In this document: positions 9,603-58,423 of the stretch, piece after piece
Position numbering within the stretch: the first letter of the stretch is position 1
Layout of the letters: each line of letters opens with the position of its first letter
DNA from: an uncultured delta proteobacterium
GTDB taxonomy: Bacteria > Bdellovibrionota_C > UBA2361 > CAIXSY01
Assembly: GCA_903922175.1 (NCBI GenBank)
Contig: CAIXSY010000024.1
Span: 634-64,633 of the forward strand
Direction of reading: 5' to 3'
Length of the DNA stretch: 64,000 bases
Program-made: the position numbers and the translations under genes
The notes under the pieces: generated by a model
Told to the model about the DNA's origin: nothing
Database searches by the model: none
What the model saw: only the letters and a program-made list of their open reading frames with translations

Positions 9603-10721
9603 ATGTCTAAAGCAATTCATACGCGGTTGAGTATTATTTGTCTGGGGATTTTTTCCGCGCTCATGCTCGTAGAAGGCTCGTTTCGCATCGGCGCTCTCTG
9701 GACACCACCTGCGCCTTCGGAACTTTACGCGAAATCTCTGCTCTACGATTCGTCGATATTTTCGCGACATGTGCTTCAGCCAGGTCCGCGTGAGGTTGAA
9801 ATCCAGCAATCGCCCCAAATTCGTTATCGCATTAATAGCCTCGGATATCGTGGACCAGACTTCCTGGAGGTCAAATCCCCGGGTCGAACGAGAGTAATGA
9901 TATATGGGGGATCTGCTGTTTTTGATGTTACGGCCAATGAAGAGCAAGATTGGCCCCATAAAGTTGGTCGTATCCTCCGGGAGAGAGGGCATGGCGATGT
10001 TGAAGTTATTAACGCTGGGACACCAGGACATGCTTCCTTTGACAATTTAGGAACCTACTTGACCGAGGGACACTCTTTAGGATCGGATTATGTGCTCCTG
10101 ATGAATGAGTGGAATGATATTAAGAGCTTTGGAAACGACGGAAGTCTTCTTCGGTCGATGAAGCCGTATGATCCGTATCACAACCCTTTTATTTATTCCC
10201 AAGGTGCCGTGGACGGATTCTTGGCTGAGCACGTGCTCCTCTATCGCTTTATTCGTGGGAGTCTCATTATCTCTTCTCGATCTGAATTTAACAGCGAAGG
10301 CGAGTTGTTGCGCCAGCCTGGCGTGGCTGGGCATATTTCTGCGCGTGCATTAGCGCAGTTCAAGCTTACGGTTGCAAGCTTTGTCGATGCCGTTAGAAAC
10401 GGTGGGGCAGAGGCTATTTTGGTAACAGAGCCTCACTTGCCTCGCCCCGATAATGAAGCCGTGGCGCGTGCAAAGATTCGCTATGATTACGTAGGGATGA
10501 GCCCTGAAGTGCTCTGCCAGGCGTTTGACGAGGCAGAGGGGGTTGTAAAGGACCTGGCCCATCAGAAAAATGTACCTTTAGTTGATTCCTCTTTGGAGAT
10601 GTCCGGTCGAGAGCAATATTTTGCTGATCATGTCCACCTAACCCCGTTGGGATCGTCTACGATGGCTGTTTTTGTTGCGGATCGGCTGGAGCTTATCTTG
10701 GGTCATCGGGTGGGGCGCTAG
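9603..10721 (+). CDS. Membrane-anchored SGNH/GDSL-family hydrolase (paralogue 1 of 5)
   Basis: I use the ATG at 9603, because track position 9582 is a TTG. The N-terminal hydrophobic helix is LSIICLGIFSALMLVEG. SGNH blocks are MIYGGSAVFD, VINAGTPGHAS and DHVHLTPLG. Confidence 0.7.
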   Translation: MSKAIHTRLSIICLGIFSALMLVEGSFRIGALWTPPAPSELYAKSLLYDSSIFSRHVLQPGPREVEIQQSPQIRYRINSLGYRGPDFLEVKSPGRTRVMIYGGSAVFDVTANEEQDWPHKVGRILRERGHGDVEVINAGTPGHASFDNLGTYLTEGHSLGSDYVLLMNEWNDIKSFGNDGSLLRSMKPYDPYHNPFIYSQGAVDGFLAEHVLLYRFIRGSLIISSRSEFNSEGELLRQPGVAGHISARALAQFKLTVASFVDAVRNGGAEAILVTEPHLPRPDNEAVARAKIRYDYVGMSPEVLCQAFDEAEGVVKDLAHQKNVPLVDSSLEMSGREQYFADHVHLTPLGSSTMAVFVADRLELILGHRVGR

Positions 10722-10722
10722 T

Positions 10723-11004
10723 TCAGTGCTTATATCCCACAATCCACAGCAGCATGAGTTTCGCCCATTCCTGGTACGTGTTGTGGTTAACGCGGCGCTT
10801 TGCTTGTACCAATTTGTCCAAAGAGTCCTGCTCGAAGTTGCCACGAGAAATGCCGAGAAGCTCGGCCTGTAGCATTTTAATCGACTCTGTCGTCTCGCAC
10901 TCAATAAAGCCTTCGACTGCTTTCTGATCGGAGATACCCGCGCTGCCGTAATTGTCGACCCAGTACTTGATCTGTTTAAATATTGGCCGCTCTCTACCGG
11001 CCAT
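10723..11004 (-). CDS. Hypothetical small protein translationally coupled to galU
   Basis: 93 aa with no family recognised. Its ATG overlaps the galU stop (TAATG). Confidence 0.4.
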   Translation of the reverse strand: MAGRERPIFKQIKYWVDNYGSAGISDQKAVEGFIECETTESIKMLQAELLGISRGNFEQDSLDKLVQAKRRVNHNTYQEWAKLMLLWIVGYKH

Positions 11005-11897
11005 TAGCCCTCCTTTTTCGTCTGGGCTAGGACCTCACGCATGTAGGCCAAGAGTTTTGGGCGAATGTCTGGGCGTTTTAAGGCATAGGCGACATTCGCT
11101 TGCAGGAACCCAAACTTGTCGCCAGCATCATAGCGCTGCCCTTCAAACTGGAGCCCCAAAAAGCCGTCGCGCCGCATTAAGGTGGCCATGGCGTCAGTGA
11201 TCTGGATTTCACCACCTTTGCCCGGCGCTTGCTTCTCTAGAATGTCGAAAATCGCGGGAGTGAGGATATATCTACCGACGATGGCGCTGTGAGATGGGGC
11301 CTCGGCGAGTTTGGGCTTCTCCACCATGGCGGAGATCTCCATAATCCTATCGGTCATCATCTTGCCGCCACAGATACCGAATTTGGGAACGTCTTCATCT
11401 GAGACCTCCCATAGACCCACAACGGACTTGCCATATTCCTGGTATACATCCAACATCTGCTTCGTGCAGGGGACCTTGGCATCAACCAGGTCGTCGCCGA
11501 GGAGCACGGCAAAGGGCTCGTCTCCGATTACCTGACGCGCGCAGAGCACGGCGTGTCCAAGGCCACGGGGCGTGCCTTGTCGCACGGAGACGATCTGCAC
11601 CATCGAGCGTACTTTGCGTAGGCAGGCCACGAGGTCGTCTTTCCCCTCTTTCTCAAGTTTAGTTTCGAGGTCGAGGTACTGATCAAAGTGATCTTCGATA
11701 GCCTCTTTGCCGCGCCCCGTGATAAACACGACGGTGTCTATTCCAGCATCCATAACCTCTTGGACGATGTATTGGATGGTTGGGATATCGACAATGGGGA
11801 GGAGCTCTTTCGGCACGGCTTTGGTGGCTGGTAAAAAGCGGGTGCCGAGTCCGGCAGCGGGGATGACAGCTTTGCGTACACGAGGTAAGGTTGGCAT
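11004..11897 (-). CDS. galU: UTP--glucose-1-phosphate uridylyltransferase
   Basis: 297 aa. KAVIPAAGLGTRFLPATKAVPKELLPIVDIPTIQYIVQE, VRQGTPRGLGHAV and VEKP are canonical GalU blocks. Confidence 0.95.
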   Translation of the reverse strand: MPTLPRVRKAVIPAAGLGTRFLPATKAVPKELLPIVDIPTIQYIVQEVMDAGIDTVVFITGRGKEAIEDHFDQYLDLETKLEKEGKDDLVACLRKVRSMVQIVSVRQGTPRGLGHAVLCARQVIGDEPFAVLLGDDLVDAKVPCTKQMLDVYQEYGKSVVGLWEVSDEDVPKFGICGGKMMTDRIMEISAMVEKPKLAEAPSHSAIVGRYILTPAIFDILEKQAPGKGGEIQITDAMATLMRRDGFLGLQFEGQRYDAGDKFGFLQANVAYALKRPDIRPKLLAYMREVLAQTKKEG

Positions 11898-12177: not shown

Positions 12178-13794
12178 TTGAAGGTCTGCGTGAAGTCGAT
12201 TATTGAAGCAATTCGTCAACATCGTCGACATTGGTCGGCGGAGATCGTTACCGCCCTCATGTGGGCAATATACTGTTCTGTCGCGATGTTCCTGCCGTGG
12301 AAGCACTCTCCAGATGGGAATGTGTATTATCTTGTTACACTACGTATCTTGCAGGGAAATTTTACCGAGTCGATAGACGGAGTTTTTTCGCCTCTTCTTT
12401 CCTGGTTCATGGTAATCCCTAGCTTGTTTGGGACAGCTCTGCCGGATGCGTACAGGATCGTTAACTGCCTTGCCTTTGGAGTTCTGCTTTGGGCGACATC
12501 TTCGCTTAGCAAAAAGTTCAAGTTTTCACCTCTGTTGCACGGTCTTATCCTTGTTCTTACGACGCTTGAGTGCGCCTATCTTAGTCTGAGGCTGATCACC
12601 TCTGACCTTCTTGCCGCCGGATTGGTTGTATTGTTCGTTGATGGCCTTGTTGCTGACCAGCAGGGGGCGCGGCGCACAAAGTGGTACAGCTATTCGGTTC
12701 TTATCTCGCTGGTGTACCTAGCCAAAGCGTTTCAGCTCCCCATCATCCTGGGAAGCCTCATAGCTTCTTGGTTCTTTGTGCTCCGCCGTGGAGCTGGTGA
12801 GTTTGCACGCCCCACATGGATAGTTTGTATAATCGTAATGGCCTTAGCCTTATGTGCCCCTTGGGTGGCAGTACTAAGCGTCAAATATGGAGCTTTTACT
12901 CTTAGCGCGCAGCAATTCATCTATCACCGACAGCTGCCGCTTGAGTACTCTCCGTTTAACCAGCCTGTACTCGCCGCTGGAGCAGATAGTCGTCACCTCG
13001 CGGTAGTTGCTGCTCCCTCGCTTTTAAGTGAAAGTCTAAGGCGCATTGTTGTAGGGACTACCGAACTGCGCCGTGGAGCGACAACAGCGGTCTTCGGCGA
13101 TGTCGGGCTGTGGTTTTTTATCGGGATGTTGTTCATATCCGCCGTAGCGGCGAGTAGGGCATCCGAGCAGGCGGCCGAATGCAGACTTCTATGGATCTTC
13201 GCCGTCGTCCCCTTTGTTTTCTACCTGCCCATTTGGGGTGGAAGCTTACGCTATTATTTCCCGTCGCTGCCGCTTCTGAATCTATTGGTTGTTCGTGCCA
13301 TATCTCAGACTGATGCCGTCATTCGTCTATGGCGGGTAACCGCTCCCAATCGAGTTCGCTGGGGGGCGGTGATGGCTTACAGGGCGTTAGTCTCAATTAC
13401 GATCATAGGGATCGTGTACCAAAGCGTATCCTTGGTTGTTCGTGATTGGAGTAGCACCTCCGACCACGTCGTCAAGTGGGCCGCTAATTTGCCCGAACTT
13501 CGCGACGGGGCGGGGACGATTGCGGGGTTTGAAGTCAGTGATCCATATCCGTCACTTATTGCCGCTGTGCTTGGACGGCCGATGTGGTTGTATGTTGGGC
13601 TGCATATGCAGGACGCCCCTCGTAGACTGCAGGAGCTACTTGCGCGTGAGACAATTTCTCAAGTGGTCGTTAGTGGTGGGCGCAATACGCATCTCGAGGA
13701 GGTGCCAGGCATTGAGTTTATAGGTGTTTTCTCGCAGCCATCGTACTCCTTTGCACTTTACCATTTTGGCCCCTCTCCGGCGGAGATAAAATGA
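12178..13794 (+). CDS. Polytopic membrane protein, putative GT-C-fold glycosyltransferase
   Basis: 538 aa, hydrophobic throughout with many helix-length segments. It shares an ATGA overlap with the next GT-C-like gene. The start is non-ATG (TTG 12178 or GTG 12190). The family call comes from context and topology only. Confidence 0.45.
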   Translation: MKVCVKSIIEAIRQHRRHWSAEIVTALMWAIYCSVAMFLPWKHSPDGNVYYLVTLRILQGNFTESIDGVFSPLLSWFMVIPSLFGTALPDAYRIVNCLAFGVLLWATSSLSKKFKFSPLLHGLILVLTTLECAYLSLRLITSDLLAAGLVVLFVDGLVADQQGARRTKWYSYSVLISLVYLAKAFQLPIILGSLIASWFFVLRRGAGEFARPTWIVCIIVMALALCAPWVAVLSVKYGAFTLSAQQFIYHRQLPLEYSPFNQPVLAAGADSRHLAVVAAPSLLSESLRRIVVGTTELRRGATTAVFGDVGLWFFIGMLFISAVAASRASEQAAECRLLWIFAVVPFVFYLPIWGGSLRYYFPSLPLLNLLVVRAISQTDAVIRLWRVTAPNRVRWGAVMAYRALVSITIIGIVYQSVSLVVRDWSSTSDHVVKWAANLPELRDGAGTIAGFEVSDPYPSLIAAVLGRPMWLYVGLHMQDAPRRLQELLARETISQVVVSGGRNTHLEEVPGIEFIGVFSQPSYSFALYHFGPSPAEIK

Positions 13795-15218
13795 ACAACA
13801 TTCGTCGCGGGCTAATCCAACTTATATGCGTGGCGGTTGGAGCGTTCTACTTCTGGCTGCTTTATCGAGTTTTGTCCTTCGCCCCGATTAACCCGGATGC
13901 TGGTTACTACCTCTCGGTAGTAGAAAGAGTTCGGGAGGGCCTCGTTCCGTATCGCGATTTTAGGCTTCACTATACTCCGCTCGGGATCTACCTATTGGGA
14001 TGGGGGGCGAATCTGTTGGGAGGTGGTGTCCCCAGCTATGTGGCGTACGTGGAAAGTATGCTTGTGGCGCAGATTCTCTGTTTGATCCTTACCTTCGTCA
14101 TACTTCGCCGTCTGGGATTACCTAAAGTTTCAGCCGCGTTGGCAGCGTTTACGCAAGGTTGTATCTTTATATACTACCAGGGATCTTTCATCGAATTAGA
14201 GCCCTATGTGCTGCTTTTCACCCTCGGCACTATCTATGTCTGCCTTTCTGACGTTGCCCTGTCTCGACGATGCTTTTACGCCGGCTTGTTTGCCGCGCTG
14301 GCTTTTTTGTCTAAGCAGTATGGAGTTGCTGCGCTCGCATCTTCATCTGTTCTCCTTCTTCCAGCCGGGAGTATTTTGGCCAGACTGCGAAGGGGTGCTC
14401 TTATTGCGCTTGGATTTATTTTGCCATTGTTTTTTGCCCTCACGTATTATTGTGTGATCGCGGAGACGTCACTCTCCGCAGTGCTCACGGGTGTTCGGCG
14501 TGCAGACCTAAAATTCGTGCTTAATGAGCCATGGAATTTGACGGCATGGGGGATCGAATGGAGCGTAGCCATTGTTGTTATTATCGCTGCATTCGTGCGT
14601 GCGCAGGCTAAGCAGAGACTTGTGTTCTCAACTCTTGCGCTTGCTGCGTTAAGCTTTGTACCGCAGTTTATGGTGAGGCAGTCGCTGCACTACTTTATGC
14701 TTCCCTCCGCCCCATTGTTTATTTTGGCAGTATATGCGGCGTTTACCCTGATGCAGAAATTTAGAGTGGCTAAAGCGCGACTTCTTTTATGCGGGTTTTC
14801 TCTCTGGTGTGCGATGTTCGTGCTCCTGGCTGGTCAAGAGGTGTTGTCGTTTGGGGATGGCTCATCGAGGCGTCATCAGCTCAAAGAGGGGGAGGAGTTG
14901 CGTGCGCTTTTACCTGTCGAGAGCCGAGCACTTTTAATCGCCGATCCTATGTTTTTTTACACGGCACAACTGCGAAGCTTTAACGAGCTTGGGGTGGGCT
15001 ATGATTATCCAGGGCTTCACTCGGGGACGACGATAGCTGCTTGGGTTCAGGCGGCAACGACTGTGGTTGTCGACCGCGCCGATACTCTATTCTATCAACG
15101 GGTGGAAGAGGAGCTTATGAAGAACGGGGACACGCTGAGCGGTCTGCTAGAGCGGGAAGGATTTGAACAAACGGTGAGTATGCGGCAGGGAGAGGTGGAG
15201 ATTTGGCGGAGGGGATGA
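13791..15218 (+). CDS. GT-C-fold membrane glycosyltransferase (DUF2029/GT87-like)
   Basis: 475 aa. The first loop NPDAGYYLSVVERVREGLVPYRDFRLHYTPLG resembles the D..Y...G..PY.DF..YPP loop of DUF2029/GT87 enzymes. The remainder is polytopic. Confidence 0.6.
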   Translation: MNNIRRGLIQLICVAVGAFYFWLLYRVLSFAPINPDAGYYLSVVERVREGLVPYRDFRLHYTPLGIYLLGWGANLLGGGVPSYVAYVESMLVAQILCLILTFVILRRLGLPKVSAALAAFTQGCIFIYYQGSFIELEPYVLLFTLGTIYVCLSDVALSRRCFYAGLFAALAFLSKQYGVAALASSSVLLLPAGSILARLRRGALIALGFILPLFFALTYYCVIAETSLSAVLTGVRRADLKFVLNEPWNLTAWGIEWSVAIVVIIAAFVRAQAKQRLVFSTLALAALSFVPQFMVRQSLHYFMLPSAPLFILAVYAAFTLMQKFRVAKARLLLCGFSLWCAMFVLLAGQEVLSFGDGSSRRHQLKEGEELRALLPVESRALLIADPMFFYTAQLRSFNELGVGYDYPGLHSGTTIAAWVQAATTVVVDRADTLFYQRVEEELMKNGDTLSGLLEREGFEQTVSMRQGEVEIWRRG

Positions 15219-38910: not shown

Positions 38911-39087
38911 ATGAGTGAAATCAAAGAGATTATTAAAAAAGATCACTCTCAGGAAGAGGAGAAAGCGGCAACCTTAGTCGAATATGCCTTACTTGTTGCC
39001 TTGATTGCTGTTGTTTGCATCGTTTCGGTTCGCATAATAGGCCAGAAAACCTCACAGAAATTTTCAATGTTGGCGAGCTCTCTTTAG
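38911..39087 (+). CDS. flp: Flp/Fap-family type IVb pilin prepeptide
   Basis: 58 aa from ATG 38911, with GGAGG 5 nt upstream. A charged leader is followed by ATLVEYALLVALIAVVCIVSV....TSQKFSMLASSL, matching the Flp motif (xEY + hydrophobic helix + S/T-rich tail). Confidence 0.7.
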   Translation: MSEIKEIIKKDHSQEEEKAATLVEYALLVALIAVVCIVSVRIIGQKTSQKFSMLASSL

Positions 39088-39793: not shown

Positions 39794-39829
39794 GAACTCC
39801 TCAACTATGCGCGGTCTTAATCCGACGGC

Positions 39830-45860: not shown

Positions 45861-45882
45861 TAGTGCCCGTGGTCTCAGTGCC

Positions 45883-51619: not shown

Positions 51620-52260
51620 AATCGCTCGGCAGAATATACAGCATGTGTAGCGACGCTCCTGACCGTTCGGGAGGGGGGATGAACTCCACCGAAGGCGATC
51701 GAAATATCGGACACCATCATCGCTTGCGCATCATTGTTTCCCTCCCCAATAAAAACTACGCGCTCTGCACTACGGCGGCACTGGGCCGTCACCTGCTCTT
51801 TATTTATGATCTGGTCAAGCCGAATCACGTGGTCGTCTTTTACGCACGCCGTTGATACAAAATAAGCACAGCCTAGCCTTTTCAAGAGAGGAACAACCCA
51901 GCAATCTAGGTTTTGGGTAATAACTCGGCAATTTCTCGGGTGTGTGACGATGAACGACGCTATATGGGAATTTAATTTGGTTTTTGTAATCAAGTCTCTT
52001 ATCTGAGAGACTGGGAGTTTTCCTAAGACGTTCACTCTTTTGATGAAGGACTCAATGAAAGGTACTTTTCCCTCTATCGTATCTTTGGTGAGCGCTTCAA
52101 TATCTTCTTTAATGCCCGGGAAATTCTTAGCAATTAGAGGAAGTGTCTCCTCCTCGGTGACCGTTCCGTCAAGGTCGAAAAGAAAAAGAGTCTCTGCTAT
52201 CTTTGTTTTAAAGCTACTTGCCACATTGTTGAAGATACCCTTCTTGGAAAAACAAAACAA
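51592..52260 (-). CDS. HAD-superfamily hydrolase, subfamily IB (phosphoserine-phosphatase-like)
   Basis: Motif I is LFDLDGTVT and motif IV is GEGNNDAQAM. The start is non-ATG (TTG 52260 or GTG 52224). Confidence 0.8.
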   Translation of the reverse strand: MFCFSKKGIFNNVASSFKTKIAETLFLFDLDGTVTEEETLPLIAKNFPGIKEDIEALTKDTIEGKVPFIESFIKRVNVLGKLPVSQIRDLITKTKLNSHIASFIVTHPRNCRVITQNLDCWVVPLLKRLGCAYFVSTACVKDDHVIRLDQIINKEQVTAQCRRSAERVVFIGEGNNDAQAMMVSDISIAFGGVHPPSRTVRSVATHAVYSAERLCTFLKQLL

Positions 52261-52828: not shown

Positions 52829-53887
52829 ATGAGTCTGCTTCTCGGATTCAAGGGCACAATGCCGAGGTTTTTTTGTACCTATCTTAATATAAATTACCTC
52901 TCTCGTGGAATTGCGCTCCTGCATTCTCTGCATGCTGTGGTAGGCGATTTCATGTTGTTGGTGGTGTGTTTTGATGAAACATCTCTTGCAGCGTGCCGTG
53001 CGCTGAACGATGAAAGACTTCAGAGCGTATCTATCGACTCGGTGGAGCAGGCTGTTCCTGCCTTGTGCGAGCTAAAATCGGTGCGTTCAGCAGTTGAATA
53101 TTTTTTTTCGGCAACCCCGTGTGTTATCGATTATGCCCTCGAGTTCTTTTCAGAGGCTCAGCTTATTACCTACCTCGATGCGGATCTTTTTTTCTTTGCC
53201 TCTCCAGAGCCCATCTTCGCAGAGATTGGGGATGCCTCAGTTGGAATTATTGAGCACCGTTTTTCGGGGCGTAATGAGCATTTAAATAAGTTTGGACGCT
53301 TCAATGTCGGTTGGGTTTCTTTTCGCCGTGACGGTGATGGTCTCGCTTGTTTACAGTGGTGGAAGGAGAGCTGTCTTGAGTGGTGCTTCGATCGACTCGA
53401 TGGCGATCGATACGCCGATCAGAAGTATCTCGATCAGTGGCCGACGCGCTTTAACAAAGTCAGAGTCATTGCGCATCAAGGGGCTAACGTAGCACCTTGG
53501 AATATGGAAAATCTTCCACTCTCAAAGACGGCCGGGCAGTTGGAGGTGGGGCGCTGGCCGCTTATTTTCTTTCACTTCCAAGGTCTTCGTCAATTGACCT
53601 CAAAGATATTTAATAGTGGGGTCGGGCGTTATGGCGTAGCCCTTGATGCCTCGTGGCGCACGCTGGTATTTGAGCCGTATGTTGGGGCATTAATTGACGC
53701 CGGTGCCTTGTTACGAGATTGTGCGCCGCATGCCTCTGCCGCGACTACGAGCCGTGTTCCTCAGCCGTTCTCAAATCGCCTTGTGGCCGTTGTTTATAGT
53801 AGCTACAATCGTGCGCGGTCCGCGTTACGTCTCGTGCGTGATGCGGCCCTATTTAGGGCGTTGGTGCGAGCCCACAAATCTTCTTAA
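52829..53887 (+). CDS. GT-A-fold nucleotide-diphospho-sugar transferase (GT8-like)
   Basis: 352 aa. The DxD block is ITYLDADLFFFASP. The N-terminal CTYLNINYLSRGIALLHSL is typical of this poorly characterised group. Confidence 0.55.
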   Translation: MSLLLGFKGTMPRFFCTYLNINYLSRGIALLHSLHAVVGDFMLLVVCFDETSLAACRALNDERLQSVSIDSVEQAVPALCELKSVRSAVEYFFSATPCVIDYALEFFSEAQLITYLDADLFFFASPEPIFAEIGDASVGIIEHRFSGRNEHLNKFGRFNVGWVSFRRDGDGLACLQWWKESCLEWCFDRLDGDRYADQKYLDQWPTRFNKVRVIAHQGANVAPWNMENLPLSKTAGQLEVGRWPLIFFHFQGLRQLTSKIFNSGVGRYGVALDASWRTLVFEPYVGALIDAGALLRDCAPHASAATTSRVPQPFSNRLVAVVYSSYNRARSALRLVRDAALFRALVRAHKSS

Positions 53888-53900
53888 TGGAGACGATTGC

Positions 53901-54743
53901 GTGCAGTGGCGAAAGATTCTAAGGCCGTTTGTCCCTCCGCTTTTATGGCAAGCTGGCCGTCTTCTTATGGGCGAGCAGGACTCGCTGCGGTTTTATGGCC
54001 CCGTTGCTTCATGGGAGGATGCCCTCGGTCGTTGCGCAGGGTATGGCTCGCCGCTTATTCTTGAGGCTGCCAAGCAAGCGCGCTTAAAAGTTGAGCGGGG
54101 GGAGGCAGCATGGGAGCGTGATGGGGTTGCCTTTTCTTCCGGCAATCCACCGTTTCCGCTTTTGTGCGCGATCCTTGTGGCATCATTAAACATCAAGCAC
54201 CGCCTCGTCGTGCTTGATTACGGCGGTGCGCTTGGGAGTTCCTACACACAGTGCCGACATTTTTTAAAAAATTTACCTGAGATATTGTGGTTAGTTGTGG
54301 AACAACCGCACATTGCGCAATGTGGACGTGAGCTTTTTGAATCATCCTCGCTAAGGTTTTTTGACAGCATTGAGGACGCTAGTCGTGCTGCAACCCCGGA
54401 CATTGTCGTTCTCTCAGGCGTGCTTCAGTATCTTTCGCGACCGTATGAGGTGCTTGCAACACTAGTCAAGCTTCGGGCCTCAGTACTCTTTATTGATCGC
54501 ACATCTTTTTCAACTTCCGCAGATCTGCTTACTGTGCAACTGGTACCAAGCGTGCACTCGGCGATTAGCTACCCTTGTTGGTTCCTTGATCAAGGGGCAG
54601 TACTTTCCATGGTAGCGGAGCAATATCTTGCATTAACTACTTTTGATTGCCCAGAGGGATTTTATAGCAGGGCGAGGCTTTGTGCGCACTTTCGGGGAAT
54701 ACTTTTTAGTCTAAAGAACTATTCGCCGTCTGAGAAAGCATAG
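53901..54743 (+). CDS. SAM-dependent methyltransferase of the TIGR04325 (LIC12133-like) type
   Basis: I use the GTG at 53901, preceded by GGAGA. Track start 53694 overlaps the previous gene. FYGPVASWEDALGRCAGYGSPLILE....GEAAWERDGV and VLDYGGALGSSY resemble that family. Confidence 0.6.
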   Translation: MQWRKILRPFVPPLLWQAGRLLMGEQDSLRFYGPVASWEDALGRCAGYGSPLILEAAKQARLKVERGEAAWERDGVAFSSGNPPFPLLCAILVASLNIKHRLVVLDYGGALGSSYTQCRHFLKNLPEILWLVVEQPHIAQCGRELFESSSLRFFDSIEDASRAATPDIVVLSGVLQYLSRPYEVLATLVKLRASVLFIDRTSFSTSADLLTVQLVPSVHSAISYPCWFLDQGAVLSMVAEQYLALTTFDCPEGFYSRARLCAHFRGILFSLKNYSPSEKA

Positions 54744-55167
54744 TTATACAAGAGTTTTAAGATGGTTCTAGGTGCATGCCAGTGTCAGTTATCGACCGAA
54801 TGGGATGACTTGACTCGTCCGTGGAGCGTTCGCAACATTTGCTTGGTTTGTGTGCACCCTTCGTAGCATTTGAGAGCTTGTCGGTTAATGAATTGGTGTA
54901 TTAGGAGGCTATGAGAAACTCCATTTCATGATTCTCCTCACCACTCTTGCAGTCCTCCTTGTGTGGAAACACTAGGTCTTTCATTAAGAGAACGGCGAGG
55001 AAACCGAATATTTCAGGGGTCCCCGCTAATCTAGTTAGTTTTGTTGATGAATTCAGTGCTTGAGATAGTCAGTATTAGAAGAAGGAGATCCTTGGTTATC
55101 TTGGCATGCCCTTGGCGATTCATGCTAGGCTCCTTGCGCTTAGTAGGTACGATAGTAGTGTGGAGCA

Positions 55168-56319
55168 TTGACGAAGGTGGAAGATCAGGGAGGAGTGGGT
55201 TTGGGCATTCGAGTTGCGGCACGGCGTCGTTTACTCTTTGTTATCCCCACATTGGGGTGTGGCGGGGCCGAGCGCATCTCGGCATTACTGGCTAATGCCT
55301 TTGCCCGCCGTGGTATGGTTGTTCAGATCGTTAGGCTGGACCGAGGGGCTGATCCAGTGTTCGTTAATCTAGAGCCAGAGATAAAGGTGCATGCCCTTGG
55401 CTTATTGAGCGGTTGGCAAACGATATTCCGGTTACCAGGGGCATTATTGAAGCTGCGCCGGCTCCTTCGGCATTCTGATTGTGTCATCTCTTCGGTTACG
55501 GGCGCCAGCGTACTTTCAATCCTCTCTCTTGTCGGGAGTCGTGTGCCGGCGGTCATCATCGATCATTCGCACCCGAGCTATTACACGCGCCGGATTATAC
55601 ATCGTCTGGCCCGTTCTCTGTTCTACCGCAGGGCTAATCGCATCGTCGTACTTACGGAGGAGTCAGGCCGAGCACTTAAGCATCTTGGGGCCCGGGTCTT
55701 GGTCATCCCGAATCCTGTTGAAGTGGATTCTATAGAGAGGCAAAAGGGAGAGGCTCTCAAGCTTGAGAGAATCTCCTCGGTACGCATCGTCGCCATGGGG
55801 CGACTTGTCCCAGTCAAGGGATTTGAACGTCTTCTTACGGCCTTTGCCACGGTCGTCGCCCATCATCCAGCAGCGGAGTTGGTAATTTGGGGTGAGGGGC
55901 CGATGCGGACAGAATTGGAAAGTCTTTCAACTCGCCTTGGCATCTCCGCACGGGTGAGCTTTCCTGGCGTAACCAGAAACCCAAGCCTTGAGCTCGCCGC
56001 GGCTGATATCTTTGTTCTGTCTTCCTATACGGAGGGCTTCCCCGGTGTGCTGTGCGAAGCCATGGCCTGTGGAACAGCCGCAGTAAGCTTCGCCTGCCCG
56101 GCTGGCCCAGCTGAAATTATTCAGCACGAGAAAAATGGTTTGCTCGTCCCCAATGGGGATGTGCAGGCGTTGGTAGGTGCAATGGATCGGTTAATCATGG
56201 ATAAGGAACTGCGTGCTCGGCTAGGGCATGAGGCTACGAGGGTAGTGGTGGAGTATTCGTTGGATAAGATTGTCGCCCGGTACACAAGCTTAATCGATGA
56301 GGTGGACTGCGCTGGCTAA
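55168..56319 (+). CDS. GT4-family (GT-B fold) glycosyltransferase
   Basis: The N-terminal block is LLFVIPTLGCGGAERISALLANAF. The C-terminal block EGFPGVLCEAMACGTAAVS is the E-x7-E-type motif. The start is uncertain (TTG 55168 or GTG 55177). Confidence 0.85.
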   Translation: MTKVEDQGGVGLGIRVAARRRLLFVIPTLGCGGAERISALLANAFARRGMVVQIVRLDRGADPVFVNLEPEIKVHALGLLSGWQTIFRLPGALLKLRRLLRHSDCVISSVTGASVLSILSLVGSRVPAVIIDHSHPSYYTRRIIHRLARSLFYRRANRIVVLTEESGRALKHLGARVLVIPNPVEVDSIERQKGEALKLERISSVRIVAMGRLVPVKGFERLLTAFATVVAHHPAAELVIWGEGPMRTELESLSTRLGISARVSFPGVTRNPSLELAAADIFVLSSYTEGFPGVLCEAMACGTAAVSFACPAGPAEIIQHEKNGLLVPNGDVQALVGAMDRLIMDKELRARLGHEATRVVVEYSLDKIVARYTSLIDEVDCAG

Positions 56320-56339
56320 AGAATTTCAGGTTTCTCACT

Positions 56340-57338
56340 ATGCACTTCTTAAGACTACGCAAAATACCAAACGGCCCTCTGCGCATCGAAATTCAGAGCA
56401 CTGCTGAAGGCACCAGAATTGTTAAGCTATTTTCGTCTGAGATGCAGGCACCCTCATTGGTTCATGAATTTGAGACGAAATATACAGTTGAGCTCATTGA
56501 AGCTCTTTTAAAGACTCATGGAGCTGCGTCTCTTTGGGATGAAATTCGGCGCGATGAGGACCCGACGCATATTCGGCGTCGCTTGGGGGCCTTGATTGAG
56601 GCGCATGGAATTGTCCCCTCAAAAACACATCGCATCTTGGATTTTGGATGTGGGGCGGGAGCCTCAACCCTAAACCTATCGCGTTTTTTCCCGAGTGCTG
56701 AGGTAATCGGTATTGAGCCACAGCGCCAGATGATAGAAGTTGCAAGGAAACGCGCTGATTTTTGGGAGCTCTCAAACATCTCTTTCTTACCTTCTGAGAG
56801 TGACACAAAGTTGCCCGAGGTGAGGGGCCCTTTTGATTTAATTCTTCTCAATGCTGTTTATGAGCATCTACTTCCCGATGAAAGGAGGCTCCTTTTGCCT
56901 CAGTTATGGAGGGCTCTTCGTCCACAGGGAATAGTTATAATCACCGCGACCCCTCACCGCTATTATCCATTTGAAATTCATAGCACAAGCCTTCCTCTTA
57001 TAAACTACCTGCCGGATTCATTGGCCTTCCACTGTGCCAAGAAATTCTCCCGAAGGGTATGCGGAGATCCGACATGGGAGAGCCTTCTCAAGGGGGGGAT
57101 TCGTGGTGGCACGCCTAGAGGAGTGCTTGCTCACCTTACTGCAGGCAATTTGCAGGAGGGGGAAATTCTTGTGCCACGCGGAGAGAATATAAAAGATAGT
57201 GTGGACCTCTGGTGGTCGGCGACAGATCCATTGAGAAGCAAATTTCAACGCCGAGTGGCTTTTGTAATCGGAAAAATTGGAGGCATTTTCGGTCTTGAAC
57301 TGCTTCCTAGCTTGGAAATGGCTATAAGAAAAGTTTAG
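56340..57338 (+). CDS. Class I SAM-dependent methyltransferase
   Basis: Blocks are ILDFGCGAGASTLNLS, VIGIEP and LLNAVYEHL. Confidence 0.8.
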   Translation: MHFLRLRKIPNGPLRIEIQSTAEGTRIVKLFSSEMQAPSLVHEFETKYTVELIEALLKTHGAASLWDEIRRDEDPTHIRRRLGALIEAHGIVPSKTHRILDFGCGAGASTLNLSRFFPSAEVIGIEPQRQMIEVARKRADFWELSNISFLPSESDTKLPEVRGPFDLILLNAVYEHLLPDERRLLLPQLWRALRPQGIVIITATPHRYYPFEIHSTSLPLINYLPDSLAFHCAKKFSRRVCGDPTWESLLKGGIRGGTPRGVLAHLTAGNLQEGEILVPRGENIKDSVDLWWSATDPLRSKFQRRVAFVIGKIGGIFGLELLPSLEMAIRKV

Positions 57339-57625
57339 GGTGCTTATAGGAAGAAGAATAAAAGACCCCCTAGGATTTCGTCTTGTCCCCGGAAGGTGCA
57401 TAGCAATTCTCCCGCACATTCCTGTTCTGGTGTATCTGTCTGACGAGCAGATTTAGATACGGTGCGATGAGAGAGGCTGCGTAACGGTTACACGGGACGG
57501 CGCACCTAATTAATTTCGTTGCTTTGTGTTAGCATGCGCCTATGGGGAATGAGGCTGCAATGCTATGCTGCTTCCAAGGTGACTCAGCATGTGAGACGCC
57601 CCACGAACATTCTTTAAGGATAACT

Positions 57626-58423
57626 ATGTCGCCTACCATCAGCGTCGTGACTGCCTGCCGGAACGCGGTTAGCTGTATTGATCGAGCGATCTGCTCAGTT
57701 GAAGCGCAAGGTGTGGCCGGGGTTGAGTACATTGTCATCGATGGTGCCAGCACTGATGGTACGGCGGAGATAATAAAAAAGCATGCTTCTTCTATTGCCT
57801 ATTGGGTGAGCGAGCCGGATCAGGGTCTGACCGATGCCTTGATTAAGGGGTTTAGCCGGGCGACAGGGGATATCTTATGCTGGCTAAACGCAGATGATCA
57901 CTTTGAAGCAGGGGCGTTTAAGCAGGTACTGTTTGCTGTCGAGAGAGCGCCGGATGCGGTCGCTTGGGTCGGGGCGGCCAGGCGCAGGTCAAAAGGGGGC
58001 CGGCCAAAGAGGGTAGCAACACCCGCTCTTGAAGGGTTCCCTGGGCAGGGGGTGTGGTGGAAAGAGGTGCGCATTCCACAGGCGGCGTGTTTCTTTTCAG
58101 CTGCAGCCTATAGAAAGGTAGGTGGTTTAGATTCGCGTTTTAACCTGACGATGGACCTTGATCTTTGGCTGCGGTTGGCGAAGGTGGGACGGTTTGAGGC
58201 CATCCCCCAGGTGCTGGCTAATGTTACGATCGATGATGGGACCCTGTCTGGGCGTGATCCGGCCCTTACCATGAGCGAGGCGATTAGCGCTTACTGTGTT
58301 AACGGGCACCATCAGCTCGCAGCGCGGCTTTTTGAGCACTATGCGCGCCATGAGTACTGGAAGCAGACTTTGTACCGTAGCGGGCCGGTAAAGGCGCTTC
58401 GGGGGTGGTTGGAGCCGGAGTAG
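57626..58423 (+). CDS. GT2-family glycosyltransferase
   Basis: I use the ATG at 57626, preceded by AAGGA. Blocks are ISVVTACRN, YIVIDGASTDGT, EPDQGLTDAL and LNADD. Confidence 0.8.
   Translation: MSPTISVVTACRNAVSCIDRAICSVEAQGVAGVEYIVIDGASTDGTAEIIKKHASSIAYWVSEPDQGLTDALIKGFSRATGDILCWLNADDHFEAGAFKQVLFAVERAPDAVAWVGAARRRSKGGRPKRVATPALEGFPGQGVWWKEVRIPQAACFFSAAAYRKVGGLDSRFNLTMDLDLWLRLAKVGRFEAIPQVLANVTIDDGTLSGRDPALTMSEAISAYCVNGHHQLAARLFEHYARHEYWKQTLYRSGPVKALRGWLEPE

What the first reader, a model, noticed from the sequence alone, without database searches (positions are those of the whole stretch)
9603..58423. A ~49-kb envelope-glycan supercluster built around GT-C enzymes, with no recognisable initiating, polymerising or export machinery
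Seen in sequence: the locus has about nine intact polytopic GT-C-like genes (12178, 13791, 17970, 19610, 29680, 34423, 35797, 37390, 44604) plus two fragments. It also has five SGNH paralogues, one MBOAT, two acyl_transf_3 genes, four to five methyltransferases, one Wzx-like flippase, one polyprenyl-phosphate-type GT2, and only three cytoplasmic-type GTs (GT-A, GT4, GT2). I find no PglC/WbaP/WecA-type phosphoglycosyltransferase, no Wzy, no Wzz and no ABC or OPX exporter. Established knowledge: GT-C enzymes use polyprenyl-phosphate sugars on the outer face of the membrane (ArnT, PMT, PimE/GT87, PglB). Inference: the locus mainly encodes extracytoplasmic, stepwise decoration of a pre-existing acceptor (a protein, lipid or polymer made elsewhere), not a classical O-antigen or capsule pathway. 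This density of GT-C paralogues in one locus is unusual.
Basis: partly seen in the sequence, partly recalled or inferred. Interest (0 to 1): 0.7.

Follow-up and report, generated by a model that had tools for sequence, protein, structure and literature searches.

The report
Surface-glycan island packed with GT-C glycosyltransferases
An uncultured bacterium carries a roughly 49-kb cell-surface sugar locus with nine membrane-embedded GT-C glycosyltransferase genes plus many acyl- and methyl-transferases, which looks like a very large, still uncharacterised version of the known systems that decorate envelope sugars on the outer face of the cell membrane.

Summary
The gene inventory is real. All nine polytopic ORFs are at the stated coordinates, and eight have tool evidence for a GT-C fold:
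- 19610 and 29680 pass Pfam thresholds (PMT_2, GT87).
- 17970 and 44604 hit the same families just below threshold.
- 34366 and 35797 give AlphaFold models (pLDDT about 92) whose top Foldseek PDB hits are all GT-C enzymes.
- 12178 and 13791 link to these by profile-profile comparison and by homologues that hit PMT_2.
- 37390 rests on motif and architecture only.

No phosphoglycosyltransferase, Wzy, Wzz, ABC or OPX gene was found, and no unassigned gap exceeds 570 nt.

The "decoration only" reading is partly supported. A UDP-amino-sugar operon ending in a polyprenyl-phosphate-type GT2 lies beside a GT87-like gene and a Wzx-like flippase, which resembles a known three-component glycosylation module. 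But 47–58 kb looks like ordinary Wzx-dependent cytoplasmic assembly, so the acceptor may be made by this locus.

The density is high but has precedent: a Thermoanaerobaculia MAG has seven consecutive polytopic genes in 11 kb, five with GT-C-type or related evidence. A relative keeps the left junction while its GT-C gene has diverged, which suggests a variable surface-glycan island.

I rate it a new variant of a known kind, of moderate interest.

The parts
9582..10721 (+). Membrane-anchored SGNH/GDSL-like esterase or acyltransferase (weak)
   Evidence: Pfam Lipase_GDSL_2 E 8.5e-5, below threshold. One N-terminal TM segment. GxS and DxxH blocks seen by eye.
11004..11897 (-). GalU, UTP-glucose-1-phosphate uridylyltransferase
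   Evidence: NCBIfam TIGR01099, 354 bits against a cutoff of 326.8. Pfam NTP_transferase.
12178..13794 (+). GT-C-like polytopic glycosyltransferase, family without a Pfam model
   Evidence: 40 related metagenome loci. 7 of 35 homologues hit PMT_2. Invariant D46 in a PDG motif and invariant S71-P72 in an SPLLSW motif. hhalign to the 13791 family gives 95.6% probability, E 1e-8.
13791..15218 (+). GT-C-like polytopic glycosyltransferase, rare family
   Evidence: Only 3 homologues found. Invariant D36, R55-D56 and the T-P of a YTPL motif. hhalign to the 35797 family gives 81.6% probability, E 1e-5. Homologue P0012 sits in an Arn-like module inside a Wzt-ABC cluster.
15302..16477 (-). Membrane-anchored SGNH-like protein directly downstream of the AT3 gene (a split OafA/OatA-like pair)
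   Evidence: NCBIfam GDSL_LA_2486 E 1.2e-4. phmmer E 0.002 to 33356. The pairing with 16626 is inferred from adjacency.
16626..17765 (-). Acyl_transf_3 (AT3) membrane acyltransferase
   Evidence: Pfam PF01757, 64.6 bits.
17970..19613 (+). GT-C-like, PMT_2-related (below threshold)
   Evidence: Pfam PMT_2 E 8.5e-4, 20 bits against 26.1. DDE motif after TM1.
19610..21106 (+). GT-C glycosyltransferase, PMT_2 family
   Evidence: Pfam PMT_2, 35.2 bits, above the gathering score. DE motif after TM1.
21329..23443 (+). Polytopic membrane protein with a central spermidine-synthase-like domain (paralogue 1)
   Evidence: Pfam Spermine_synth E 4.7e-13. About 10 TM segments. 39% identical to 31015.
23406..24773 (-). 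APC-family amino acid/polyamine permease
   Evidence: Pfam AA_permease_2 E 2e-50.
24937..25809 (+). FkbM-family methyltransferase
   Evidence: Pfam Methyltransf_21 E 3.7e-19. In other genomes its homologues lie directly beside, or are fused to, 34366-family genes.
25830..26897 (-). Putative SGNH-like partner of the MBOAT (motif level only)
   Evidence: No family hit. GDS and DGH motifs and an N-terminal anchor. Lies immediately downstream of the MBOAT gene.
26907..28307 (-). MBOAT membrane O-acyltransferase
   Evidence: Pfam MBOAT E 1.5e-25.
28420..29331 (-). SGNH/GDSL hydrolase-fold protein
   Evidence: Pfam Lipase_GDSL_2, 34.7 bits against 32.9.
29680..30774 (-). GT87 (PimE/DUF2029-type) GT-C glycosyltransferase, with no TM helix before the acidic motif
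   Evidence: Pfam GT87, 40.9 bits against 25. No upstream coding extension in any frame.
31015..33189 (-). Polytopic spermidine-synthase-like fusion (paralogue 2)
   Evidence: Pfam Spermine_synth E 2.5e-15. PDB sequence hits are spermidine synthases, best E 7e-10.
33356..34423 (+). Membrane-anchored SGNH paralogue of 28420
   Evidence: BLASTP E 4e-41 to 28420. NCBIfam GDSL_LA_2486 E 1.4e-7.
34366..35817 (+). GT-C-fold glycosyltransferase of an unnamed family (274 cluster representatives)
   Evidence: Representative search. Invariant D75 and R375. 13 of 93 homologues hit PMT_2. AF2 pLDDT 92.5. Foldseek top hits are ArnT, AglB, ALG9/3/12, Emb, AftA/B, Pmt4, DPY19 and PglB.
35797..37305 (-). GT-C-fold glycosyltransferase of an unnamed family
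   Evidence: 20 homologues, one named RgtA/B/C/D-like by UniRef. Invariant D31-E32. AF2 pLDDT 91.8. Foldseek top hit ALG9, E 2e-5, TM 0.55, followed by AftB, STT3, Emb, Pmt4, AftA and ArnT.
37390..38799 (+). Probable GT-C-like polytopic protein (least supported of the nine)
   Evidence: About 10 TM segments. Weak PTPS_related hit, E 0.008. D-E after TM1 and an HPL motif. No PDB sequence hit.
38899..39087 (+). Small Flp-type pilin-like ORF (62 aa)
   Evidence: Sequence AATLVEYALLVALIAVV, read by eye. Not tested against a family model.
39320..39793 (-). Fragment of a GT87-like gene (C-terminal part)
   Evidence: BLASTP E 7e-5 and phmmer E 6e-7 to 44604.
39826..40793 (+). Partial, frameshifted duplicate of 37390
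   Evidence: Direct repeat of 37831-38192, 83-91% DNA identity. 68% protein identity over 286 aa.
40956..42005 (+). UDP-GlcNAc 4,6-dehydratase of the FnlA/PseB type
   Evidence: Pfam Polysacc_synt_2 E 1e-97. NCBIfam FnlA E 6e-105 and PseB E 7e-100, both below equivalog cutoffs.
42002..42628 (+). NeuD/PglB/VioB-family sugar N-acetyltransferase
   Evidence: NCBIfam TIGR03570, 181 bits against 160.8. Pfam PglD_N plus Hexapep.
42633..43754 (+). DegT/DnrJ/EryC1 sugar aminotransferase
   Evidence: Pfam E 5e-102. NCBIfam DesI-, PseC- and ArnB-like, all below cutoffs.
43769..44587 (+). GT2 of the polyprenyl-phosphate glycosyltransferase type
   Evidence: The only PDB sequence hits are ArnC, E 2e-4. 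The five best NCBIfam hits are PpgS, AglJ, ArnC, PgfS and Dol-P-hexose transferase, all far below cutoffs. DSDGQHDP motif.
44604..45950 (-). GT87-like GT-C glycosyltransferase (just below threshold)
   Evidence: Pfam GT87 E 8.4e-5, 22.9 bits against 25. Convergent with, and 17 nt from, the GT2 at 43769.
45883..47049 (-). Acyl_transf_3 membrane acyltransferase
   Evidence: Pfam E 3.6e-27.
47237..48718 (-). Wzx-like MOP-superfamily flippase
   Evidence: Pfam Polysacc_synt, 53 bits against 28.2. About 11 TM segments.
48687..52260 (-). Phospho-substituent cassette: LicD, methyltransferase, Asp/cysteate-type racemase, MobA/IspD-like nucleotidyltransferase, HAD-IB phosphatase
   Evidence: Pfam and NCBIfam. 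GC content drops to 0.45-0.46 here.
52829..53887 (+).
   Evidence: No Pfam, NCBIfam or PDB hit. Homologues occur in 6 of the 34366-family loci and in L082.
53694..58423 (+). Cytoplasmic assembly genes: TIGR04325 methyltransferase, GT4, methyltransferase, GT2
   Evidence: NCBIfam TIGR04325, 169 bits against 80. Pfam Glycos_transf_1, Methyltransf_25 and Glycos_transf_2. PDB hits for the GT2.
60187..62214 (-). Third polytopic spermidine-synthase-like fusion, outside the finding's range
   Evidence: Pfam Spermine_synth E 0.0026. BLASTP E 3e-5 to 21329. About 11 TM segments.

Best explanation
The locus is a mosaic, probably strain-variable island for a cell-surface glycan (O-antigen-like, exopolysaccharide-like or glycoconjugate) in an uncultured bacterium. 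I read it as three layers.

1. Cytoplasmic assembly, 47-58 kb. GT4, GT2 and possibly the DxD protein, with three methyltransferases and a LicD-type phospho-substituent cassette, build and modify a polyprenyl-linked oligosaccharide. The Wzx-like protein flips it. This layer is inferred from enzyme classes.

2. A three-component-type module, 40.9-48.7 kb. A dehydratase, an aminotransferase and an N-acetyltransferase convert UDP-GlcNAc to a UDP-4-acetamido-4,6-dideoxy-hexosamine-type sugar. The GT2 at 43769 loads it onto polyprenyl phosphate. A flippase, possibly the same MOP protein, moves it across the membrane. The adjacent GT87-like GT-C at 44604 transfers it to the glycan on the outer face. 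Enzyme classes are shown; the sugar and the order of steps are inferred.

3. Further outside-face decoration, 9.6-39 kb. Eight more GT-C enzymes from at least six sequence families add branches from polyprenyl-phosphate sugars. AT3, MBOAT and anchored SGNH proteins O-acylate the product.

The initiating phosphoglycosyltransferase, any polymerase or ligase, and the export machinery lie elsewhere in the genome or are not needed.
For: - GT-C identity of eight of the nine polytopic genes.
- An acidic residue after TM1 is invariant within each family alignment: D36, D75, D31-E32 and D46.
- The N-termini are rich in basic residues, read by eye. This fits an inside N-terminus and an outside first loop.
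- The GT2 at 43769 resembles only polyprenyl-phosphate sugar synthases. It ends an operon of UDP-amino-sugar enzymes and abuts a GT-C gene and a MOP flippase.
- Published three-component systems use exactly a lipid-phosphate sugar synthase, a flippase (MATE family in Citrobacter) and a GT-C enzyme (PMC11127046; PMC8035078).
- Homologue P0012 of 13791 sits between DegT and hexapeptide-transferase genes, near a GT2 and a small EamA protein, inside a Wzt-ABC cluster. Homologues of 35797 lie in polysaccharide clusters with Wzx, GT2, GT4, PMT_2 or Wzy_C genes.
- Variable island: in contig L065 the LOG and GalU genes are 66% and 76% identical to the window, but the adjoining GT-C gene is only 34% identical and the SGNH gene is missing. 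The window also has a partial duplication and gene fragments, a GC dip at 46-52 kb and toxin-antitoxin genes on both flanks.
Against: - No acceptor, donor or product is known.
- Only one polyprenyl-phosphate sugar synthase is visible for nine GT-C genes.
- No GtrA- or SMR-type small flippase is present.
- 37390, 25830 and 52829 are assigned by motif only.
- The locus has no initiating enzyme, polymerase or exporter, so assembly of a complete glycan cannot be shown from this contig.
- A strict polyprenyl-phosphate GT2 motif is rarely found next to homologues of the 34366 family (5 of 62) or the 12178 family (0 of 49) in other genomes.
- Some 35797 homologues sit among housekeeping genes.
- The organism, and therefore its envelope type, is unknown. 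No close relative was found in GTDB species representatives.
Confidence: 0.55

Rival explanations
1. The locus is a largely self-contained assembly line on the outer face of the membrane. The nine GT-C enzymes do not merely decorate. They build most of a branched glycan stepwise from polyprenyl-phosphate monosaccharides, as in mycobacterial arabinan/LAM or the luminal ALG3/9/12/6/8/10 steps of eukaryotic N-glycan synthesis. The cytoplasmic genes make only a short primer.
For: - Nine GT-C genes from at least six families, against only two or three cytoplasmic GTs.
- No Wzy.
- The best structural match of 35797 is ALG9, and 34366 matches ALG9/3/12, Emb and Aft enzymes.
- A comparable run of seven polytopic genes exists in L016.
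Against: - Only one lipid-phosphate sugar synthase is seen.
- No decaprenyl-phospho-arabinose-type donor pathway is present.
- Fold similarity among GT-C enzymes does not indicate their role.
- The abundance of acyl- and methyl-transferases is typical of decoration.
Confidence: 0.2
2. The locus is a protein glycosylation system. The PMT_2- and GT87-like enzymes glycosylate envelope or secreted proteins (S-layer, pilins, Ser/Thr-rich regions), as bacterial Pmt, streptococcal PgfM or Pseudomonas TfpW do.
For: - PMT_2 is the protein O-mannosyltransferase-related family.
- A Flp-type pilin-like ORF lies inside the locus at 38899-39087.
- NCBIfam's weak hits for the GT2 at 43769 include PgfS and AglJ, both protein-glycosylation synthases.
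- TfpW is a GT-C enzyme that glycosylates pilin (bioRxiv 10.1101/2020.04.19.049825, listed).
Against: - No STT3/PglB or PglL signature was found.
- The pilin ORF sits in a rearranged stretch between gene fragments and was not tested against a family model.
- MBOAT, AT3 and SGNH sets and LicD are typical of polysaccharide modification.
Confidence: 0.15
3. The GT-C genes modify lipid A or the LPS core, in the manner of ArnT or RgtA-D, to change charge and resist antimicrobial peptides.
For: - ArnT is the top structural hit for 34366.
- A 35797 homologue is named RgtA/B/C/D-like.
- The aminotransferase and the GT2 have weak ArnB- and ArnC-like hits.
Against: - Nine enzymes far exceed the known lipid A or core modification sites.
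- There are no ArnA/ArnD or ArnE/F equivalents.
- The predicted sugar is N-acetylated, so it would not add positive charge.
- No LPS core genes are present in the window.
Confidence: 0.07
4. Several of the polytopic proteins are divergent Wzy polymerases, O-antigen ligases or transporters, so the locus is a classical Wzx/Wzy cluster after all.
For: - Five of the nine had no Pfam hit of their own.
- Wzy proteins are notoriously divergent.
- A Wzx-like gene is present.
Against: - In both Foldseek searches the hits scored at high probability were almost all GT-C enzymes. Transporters scored below 0.25 probability, and no Wzy or WaaL entry was listed.
- The 12178 and 13791 families link to those GT-C families and to PMT_2.
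- Homologues co-occur with genuine Wzy_C or Wzt genes.
Confidence: 0.03

Closest known systems
Three-component / multi-component transmembrane glycosylation systems (GtrA/GtrB/Gtr-type in Shigella and Salmonella; ArnC/ArnEF/ArnT; CsbB/GtcA/YfhO; the Citrobacter polyprenyl-phosphoribose synthase / MATE / GT136 system, PMC11127046; review PMC8035078)
   Same: - A GT2 that resembles only polyprenyl-phosphate sugar synthases (43769).
- A MOP-superfamily flippase candidate (47237) and a GT-C transferase (44604), all within 5 kb.
- Sugar-nucleotide tailoring genes upstream in the same operon, as with ArnA/B.
- Predicted post-export modification on the outer face of the membrane.
   Different: - Nine GT-C genes instead of one.
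- No GtrA- or SMR-type flippase.
- The GT2 is far below every named family's cutoff.
- The predicted donor sugar, a 4-acetamido-4,6-dideoxy-hexosamine type, is not known to me as a monophosphoryl-lipid donor (from memory).
- The acceptor is unknown.
Streptococcal rhamnose-polysaccharide side-chain systems (GacI/J/K/L; S. mutans SccN/M/P/Q, PMC11754754)
   Same: - A GT2 lipid-phosphate sugar synthase.
- A Wzx-like flippase used for a monophosphoryl-lipid sugar (from my own knowledge of GacK).
- More than one GT-C enzyme adding different side chains.
- An added phospho-substituent.
   Different: - Those loci also encode the backbone GTs and an ABC exporter.
- They have two or three GT-C genes, not nine.
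- They belong to Gram-positive hosts.
Mycobacterial arabinogalactan/LAM assembly (EmbA/B/C, AftA-D, PimE and other GT-C mannosyltransferases)
   Same: - Many GT-C paralogues working on one envelope glycan, including a GT87 (PimE-type) member.
- Structural matches to Emb, AftA and AftB.
   Different: - No decaprenyl-phospho-arabinose or polyprenyl-phospho-mannose synthesis genes are seen.
- The mycobacterial genes are spread over several loci.
- Homologues here come from Acidobacteriota, Myxococcota, Bdellovibrionota and others, not Actinobacteria.
AT3-SGNH (OafA/OatA) and MBOAT-SGNH (AlgI/AlgJ/AlgX, PatA/PatB) glycan O-acyltransferase pairs
   Same: - An AT3 gene followed by an anchored SGNH-like gene (16626/15302).
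- An MBOAT gene followed by an anchored protein with SGNH motifs (26907/25830).
   Different: - The partners are separate genes, not fusions.
- Two of the five SGNH assignments are weak and one rests on motifs only.
- The substrates are unknown.
GT-C gene arrays in uncultured Acidobacteriota (Thermoanaerobaculia MAG contig DASZZV010000288, locus L016)
   Same: Seven consecutive same-strand polytopic genes in 11.3 kb. They include one 34366-family member, two 12178-family members, and DUF2142, PMT_2 and weak DUF2079 hits.
   Different: - No acyltransferase or SGNH set was detected by similarity to the window's genes.
- The gene order differs.
- I found no description of it in the literature.

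Membership tests
GT-C fold glycosyltransferase superfamily | Polytopic membrane protein with about 8-13 TM helices | tested here: met
   The crude hydropathy scan gives 5-10 TM segments for the nine genes. The AF2 models of 34366 and 35797 are all-helical bundles, and 35797 also has a small C-terminal mixed domain.
GT-C fold glycosyltransferase superfamily | Conserved acidic residue in the first extracytoplasmic loop after TM1 | tested here: met
   Invariant D36 (13791 family), D75 (34366 family, 93 sequences), D31-E32 (35797 family) and D46 (12178 family, 35 sequences). DE/DDE motifs in 17970, 19610 and 37390, and a D in 29680 and 44604, by eye. 29680 has no TM helix before the motif.
GT-C fold glycosyltransferase superfamily | Three-dimensional similarity to solved GT-C enzymes | tested here: met
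   Met for 34366 and 35797 only: Foldseek probability 1.0, TM 0.44-0.55, against ArnT, STT3/AglB/PglB, ALG3/9/12, Emb, AftA/B, Pmt4 and DPY19.
GT-C fold glycosyltransferase superfamily | Sequence membership in a curated GT-C family (PMT_2, GT87 and others) above threshold | tested here: inconclusive
   Above threshold: 19610 and 29680. Below threshold: 17970, 44604 and 37390. No direct hit: 12178, 13791, 34366 and 35797, although 7 of 35 and 13 of 93 homologues of 12178 and 34366 hit PMT_2.
GT-C fold glycosyltransferase superfamily | Uses a polyprenyl-phosphate-linked sugar donor on the outer face of the membrane | not testable with these tools
   Needs biochemistry. Only the presence of one candidate donor synthase (43769) was shown.
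Three-component transmembrane glycosylation system | GT2 polyprenyl-phosphate sugar synthase | tested here: inconclusive
   The only PDB hits of 43769 are ArnC (E 2e-4). The top five NCBIfam hits are all lipid-phosphate sugar synthases, but at 32-44 bits against cutoffs of 325-529. The DSDGQHDP motif is present. There is one C-terminal hydrophobic segment.
Three-component transmembrane glycosylation system | Dedicated flippase (GtrA, SMR/ArnEF, or MATE/Wzx-like) | tested here: inconclusive
   A Wzx-like MOP protein lies 2.6 kb away (47237). There is no unassigned space larger than 570 nt for a small flippase gene, but ORFs under 150 aa were not systematically scanned. Which lipid the MOP protein flips is unknown.
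Three-component transmembrane glycosylation system | GT-C transferase encoded next to the synthase | tested here: met
   The GT87-like gene 44604-45950 lies 17 nt from the end of the GT2 at 43769-44587, convergent with it.
Wzx/Wzy-dependent O-antigen or capsule pathway | Initiating phosphoglycosyltransferase (Bac_transf or Glycos_transf_4) | tested here: not met
   No hit in any ORF of 150 aa or more at E <= 0.01. The rest of the genome is not available.
Wzx/Wzy-dependent O-antigen or capsule pathway | Wzx flippase | tested here: met
   47237, Polysacc_synt, 53 bits.
Wzx/Wzy-dependent O-antigen or capsule pathway | Wzy polymerase and Wzz/PCP chain-length regulator | tested here: not met
   No Wzy_C, O-ag_pol_Wzy, EpsG or Wzz hits. 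The polytopic candidates resolve as GT-C.
ABC-transporter-dependent polysaccharide pathway / OPX export | Wzm/Wzt ABC transporter; Poly_export (Wza) protein | tested here: not met
   No ABC_tran, ABC2_membrane or Poly_export hits.
Mycobacterial-type arabinan/mannan assembly | Donor pathway for decaprenyl-phospho-arabinose or polyprenyl-phospho-mannose, together with multiple GT-C enzymes | tested here: not met
   Multiple GT-C genes are present, but no UbiA-type phosphoribosyltransferase, DprE-like epimerase or Ppm1-like hit.

The most novel reading that the evidence does not exclude
This uncultured, non-actinobacterial bacterium builds most of a branched envelope glycan on the outer face of the cytoplasmic membrane. 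It does so with an array of GT-C enzymes from families that have no curated model, fed by polyprenyl-phosphate monosaccharides that include a new 4-acetamido-4,6-dideoxy-hexosamine lipid donor. That would be a bacterial counterpart of mycobacterial arabinan synthesis, or of the luminal ALG steps of eukaryotes, encoded in one locus. Similar arrays, such as the one in Thermoanaerobaculia, would then mark a widespread and unrecognised mode of glycan assembly.
Probability: 0.2. Interest if true: 0.75.

Novelty: new variant of a known kind. Interest (0 to 1): 0.5.

Why it matters
GT-C enzymes are the least charted glycosyltransferase class in bacteria.

- **New families.** Four of the nine proteins here belong to families with no Pfam or NCBIfam model.
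- **A testable case.** A locus that concentrates nine such enzymes with one donor-synthesis operon and a full set of acyltransferases is a compact place to ask how far bacteria outside the Actinobacteria rely on outside-face, lipid-phosphate-sugar glycosylation.
- **A conserved trio.** An FkbM methyltransferase, a 34366-family GT-C gene and a GT2 recur together in other genomes. That gives a concrete target for functional work.
- **Annotation.** If the locus is only a hypervariable O-antigen-like island, it still shows that standard annotation misses most of its key enzymes.

Tried and rejected
- **Concatenated query.** A concatenated 12178+13791 query to the search for homologous proteins returned nothing, not even the proteins themselves. 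The 8000-candidate word filter was saturated, so one search was wasted.
- **First GTDB scan.** A scan of GTDB species representatives with 19610 found no relative. The taxonomy therefore stays unresolved.
- **Cluster look-ups.** Exact-sequence look-ups gave no names. Most window proteins are the sole member of their 90% cluster.
- **PDB sequence searches.** Profile or sequence searches against PDB for the 13791, 34366, 35797 and 12178 families, and for 37390, 19610 and 52829, gave no meaningful hit. Only structure comparison worked.
- **Single-sequence hhalign.** Comparing single window proteins with family profiles was uninformative. Profile-profile comparison was needed.
- **Alignment too diverse.** The 93-sequence alignment could not be used for the search for related loci. 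A 12-sequence subset worked.
- **Donor-synthase neighbours.** A strict polyprenyl-phosphate GT2 motif search near GT-C homologues in other genomes found few cases. It neither supports nor refutes the donor inference.
- **Wzy/ligase/transporter reading.** Considered and rejected for the modelled proteins.
- **Literature.** Searches found no description of GT-C-dense loci.
- **Archaeal origin.** Considered because of the ERCC4 and AglJ-like hits. Rejected because all related loci are bacterial and GalU, HipA, LicD and the Flp-like ORF are bacterial-type.

Full report
**Provenance**

The window matches an ENA metagenome scaffold, BUCK21-1_SAMEA6872894_METAG-scaffold_326, of 64,671 bp. Almost identical contigs exist in a few other assemblies, the longest 65,033 bp. 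The sample label suggests the stratified-lake dataset of Buck et al. 2021 (PMC8121793). That is my inference and was not verified.

GC content is about 0.50, with a dip to 0.45-0.46 at 46-52 kb. No tRNA genes are present. Most of the proteins looked up are the only member of their 90%-identity cluster, and none carries a name. A scan of GTDB species representatives with the PMT_2 gene found no relative. The organism is therefore an unplaced bacterium.

**Inventory**

I scanned every ORF of 150 aa or more against Pfam and the unassigned ones against NCBIfam. Inside 9.6-58.4 kb the largest unassigned gap is 568 nt. The finding's list holds up.

- There are two fragments. 39320-39793 resembles the C-terminus of 44604. 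The stretch from about 39826 to 40793 is a partial tandem copy of 37390.
- One MBOAT (26907), two Acyl_transf_3 genes (16626, 45883) and one Wzx-like Polysacc_synt gene (47237).
- One GT4 (55168), one soluble GT2 (57542) and one GT2 of the polyprenyl-phosphate type (43769).
- Four ordinary methyltransferases (24937 FkbM type, 49631, 53694 TIGR04325 type, 56340).
- Of the five SGNH genes, 28420 passes Pfam and 33356 is its clear paralogue. 9582 and 15302 are weak. 25830 has only the GDS and DGH motifs plus its position downstream of the MBOAT gene.
- The 'GT-A' at 52829 has no family or PDB match.
- No ORF hit Bac_transf, Glycos_transf_4, Wzy_C, Wzz, ABC_tran or Poly_export.

**Are the polytopic proteins GT-C enzymes?**

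This was the finding's stated point of refutation.

- Direct Pfam evidence covers four genes. 19610 (PMT_2) and 29680 (GT87) are above threshold. 17970 (PMT_2, E 8.5e-4) and 44604 (GT87, 22.9 bits against 25) are below it. The other five had nothing usable even at E <= 10.
- For 34366, an exhaustive HMMER search found 274 cluster representatives. Thirteen of 93 aligned homologues hit PMT_2, and D75 and R375 are invariant. AlphaFold2 on that alignment gave pLDDT 92.5. The top 21 Foldseek PDB hits are all GT-C enzymes (ArnT, AglB/STT3/PglB, ALG9/3/12, EmbB, AftA/B, Pmt4, DPY19) at probability of about 1.0 and TM 0.36-0.49. Transporters score below 0.25.
- For 35797, 20 homologues were found, one named RgtA/B/C/D-like by UniRef. 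D31-E32 is invariant and the model has pLDDT 91.8. The top hits are ALG9 (E 2e-5, TM 0.55), AftB, STT3, Emb, Pmt4, AftA and ArnT.
- For 13791, only three homologues were found. Even so, its profile matches the 35797 family at 81.6% probability (E 1e-5). That is as strong as the control comparison between the two structurally confirmed families, at 84%.
- For 12178, a metagenome scan returned 40 related loci. Seven of 35 homologues hit PMT_2. The family profile matches the 13791 family at 95.6% (E 1e-8) over 180 columns, including the acidic motif.
- 37390 remains supported only by about 10 TM segments, a D-E motif after TM1 and a weak PTPS_related hit.

So eight of nine have tool-based support, and none looks like a Wzy, ligase or transporter protein. 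Homologues also sit in loci that have their own Wzt ABC exporter or Wzy_C gene. That argues against those roles.

**A recognisable module**

Genes 40956-44587 lie head to tail on one strand, separated by at most 14 nt or overlapping by 4 nt, which suggests one operon. They encode four proteins:

- an FnlA/PseB-type UDP-GlcNAc 4,6-dehydratase;
- a NeuD/PglB/VioB-family N-acetyltransferase, above its NCBIfam cutoff;
- a DegT aminotransferase;
- a GT2 whose only PDB hits are ArnC. Its five best NCBIfam hits (PpgS, AglJ, ArnC, PgfS, Dol-P-hexose transferase) are all polyprenyl-phosphate sugar synthases, and it carries a DSDGQHDP motif.

All the GT2 scores are far below family cutoffs. It is of that type but belongs to none of those families. 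Seventeen nucleotides away, on the opposite strand, the GT87-like gene 44604 ends an operon that also holds an AT3 acyltransferase and the Wzx-like MOP protein.

This is the layout of the published three-component or multi-component transmembrane glycosylation systems. Those consist of a lipid-phosphate sugar synthase, a flippase (MATE family in the Citrobacter system) and a GT-C transferase (PMC11127046; PMC8035078). The identity of the sugar, a 4-acetamido-4,6-dideoxy-hexosamine type, is inferred from the enzyme classes.

**The rest of the locus**

- From 47 to 58 kb the genes are of cytoplasmic-assembly type. They include a LicD phosphotransferase with a nucleotidyltransferase, an Asp/cysteate-type racemase, a HAD-IB phosphatase and a methyltransferase. 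Next come the DxD protein, a TIGR04325 methyltransferase, GT4, another methyltransferase and GT2.
- With Wzx, this is what a lipid-linked oligosaccharide unit pathway looks like, minus its initiating enzyme. The acceptor for the GT-C enzymes may therefore be encoded here and need not be 'made elsewhere'.
- From 9.6 to 39 kb, GT-C genes alternate with acyl-transfer genes. The AT3 gene 16626 is followed by the anchored SGNH-like gene 15302, and the MBOAT gene 26907 by 25830. These resemble split OafA/OatA-like and AlgI/AlgJ-like pairs (my own knowledge of those systems).

**Comparison with other genomes**

- *34366 family.* It occurs in Thermoanaerobaculia and other Acidobacteriota, Polyangia, Bdellovibrionota, Magnetococcales, Desulfarculus, Opitutaceae and Phycisphaerales (59 loci).
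- *Polytopic ORF counts.* These loci extend up to 10 kb on each side. The crude count of polytopic ORFs has a median of 2 per locus and a maximum of 8, in L016.
- *The L016 array.* Seven consecutive same-strand polytopic genes span 11.3 kb. They are one 34366-family member, a weak DUF2079 hit, one unassigned gene, two 12178-family members, a DUF2142 gene and a PMT_2 gene. Dense arrays of GT-C-like genes therefore exist elsewhere, so the window is at the high end and not unique. I found no paper describing such arrays.
- *Conserved order.* A short JGI contig carries the 34366 homologue (60% identity) next to the 35797 homologue (48%), in the same relative order and orientation as in the window.
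- *A variable junction.* Contig L065 keeps LOG (66% identity) and GalU (76%) but is followed by a 12178-like gene of only 34% identity. It has no room for the SGNH gene. That is the pattern expected of a variable surface-glycan island with a conserved junction.
- *Flanks.* Toxin-antitoxin and defence-type genes lie on both sides: HipA, an AbiEii-like gene, and HigB/HigA-like ORFs recognised by eye.

**Limits**

- Only one lipid-phosphate sugar synthase is visible for nine GT-C genes.
- No small flippase gene is present.
- The acceptor, the donors, the envelope type and the organism are all unknown.

**Verdict**

The 'GT-C supercluster without initiation, polymerisation or export genes' is real. 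The interpretation as outside-face decoration is partly supported. The most likely description is a mosaic, variable surface-glycan island that combines ordinary Wzx-type cytoplasmic assembly, a three-component-type lipid-phosphate sugar module, and an unusually large set of extra GT-C and O-acyl transferases. It is a new variant of a known kind.

Noticed in passing
window 21329-23443 (+), 31015-33189 (-), 60187-62214 (-): Three paralogous polytopic proteins of about 675-725 aa and about 10 TM segments carry a spermidine-synthase / aminopropyltransferase-like domain. The domain is central in the first two and near the C-terminus in the third. An APC-family permease (23406-24773) overlaps the end of the first. 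Their role in a glycan locus is unexplained; one possibility is polyamine or aminopropyl modification.
   Followed up: partly
L004-L062 (59 GTDB loci) and protein P0016; window 24937, 34366, 57542: In about 18 of 59 loci an FkbM-type methyltransferase gene lies directly beside the 34366-family GT-C gene, at most 16 nt apart or overlapping. P0016 is a fusion of the two. A GT2 like 57542 is adjacent in 9 loci and lies within 3 kb in about 20 loci. This conserved trio has no known function. In the window the three genes are dispersed.
   Followed up: partly
L016:5145-16497 (Thermoanaerobaculia MAG contig DASZZV010000288): Seven consecutive same-strand polytopic genes: one 34366-family member, a weak DUF2079 hit, one unassigned gene, two 12178-family members, a DUF2142 gene and a PMT_2 gene. 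This array of GT-C-like genes is denser than the window's.
   Followed up: partly
window 37831-38799 and 39826-40793: A tandem partial duplication with 1994-1995 nt spacing, 91% DNA identity over 300 nt and lower identity further on. The second copy is frameshifted. A Flp-like ORF and a GT87-like gene fragment lie between the copies, which suggests a recent rearrangement.
   Followed up: yes
window 38899-39087 (+): A 62-aa ORF with a Flp/Fap pilin-like core (AATLVEYALLVALIAVV) and a Ser/Thr-rich C-terminus sits in the middle of the glycosylation locus. It could be a glycosylation target.
   Followed up: no
L065 (JGI contig Ga0105048_10027242) against window 8727-13794: A relative keeps LOG (66% identity) and GalU (76%), but the next GT-C gene is only 34% identical and the SGNH gene is absent. 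The junction is conserved while the cluster content has diverged.
   Followed up: partly
window 58430-59112 (-), 59124-59447 (-), 3921-5258 (-), 62259-63059 (-), 474-926 (+): Toxin-antitoxin and defence-type genes flank the locus: a HigA-like 102-aa ORF and a HigB-like 120-aa ORF (by eye), HipA, AbiEii, and an HI1420-type antidote. ORF 59124-59447 ends in a DGHWN motif and may be a sixth SGNH fragment, although phmmer found no similar sequence.
   Followed up: partly
window 46000-52000: GC content falls to 0.45-0.46, against about 0.51 elsewhere, across the Wzx-LicD-racemase-nucleotidyltransferase-HAD cassette. This suggests separate acquisition of the cassette.
   Followed up: no
window 29680-30774 (-): The GT87 protein starts directly at the acidic motif (DVFGYDVFY), with no preceding TM helix. 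No upstream coding extension exists in any frame, unlike its paralogue 44604. It may be truncated or have an atypical topology.
   Followed up: partly
proteins P0041, P0057, P0083, P0086 (homologues of 34366): Some family members carry an N-terminal extension of about 200 or more residues with a PA14/GLEYA-like sequence pattern (SDD.S.L..DG...DN.G.H), read by eye. This would be a carbohydrate-binding add-on. Others carry a different conserved N-terminal domain of about 190 residues.
   Followed up: no
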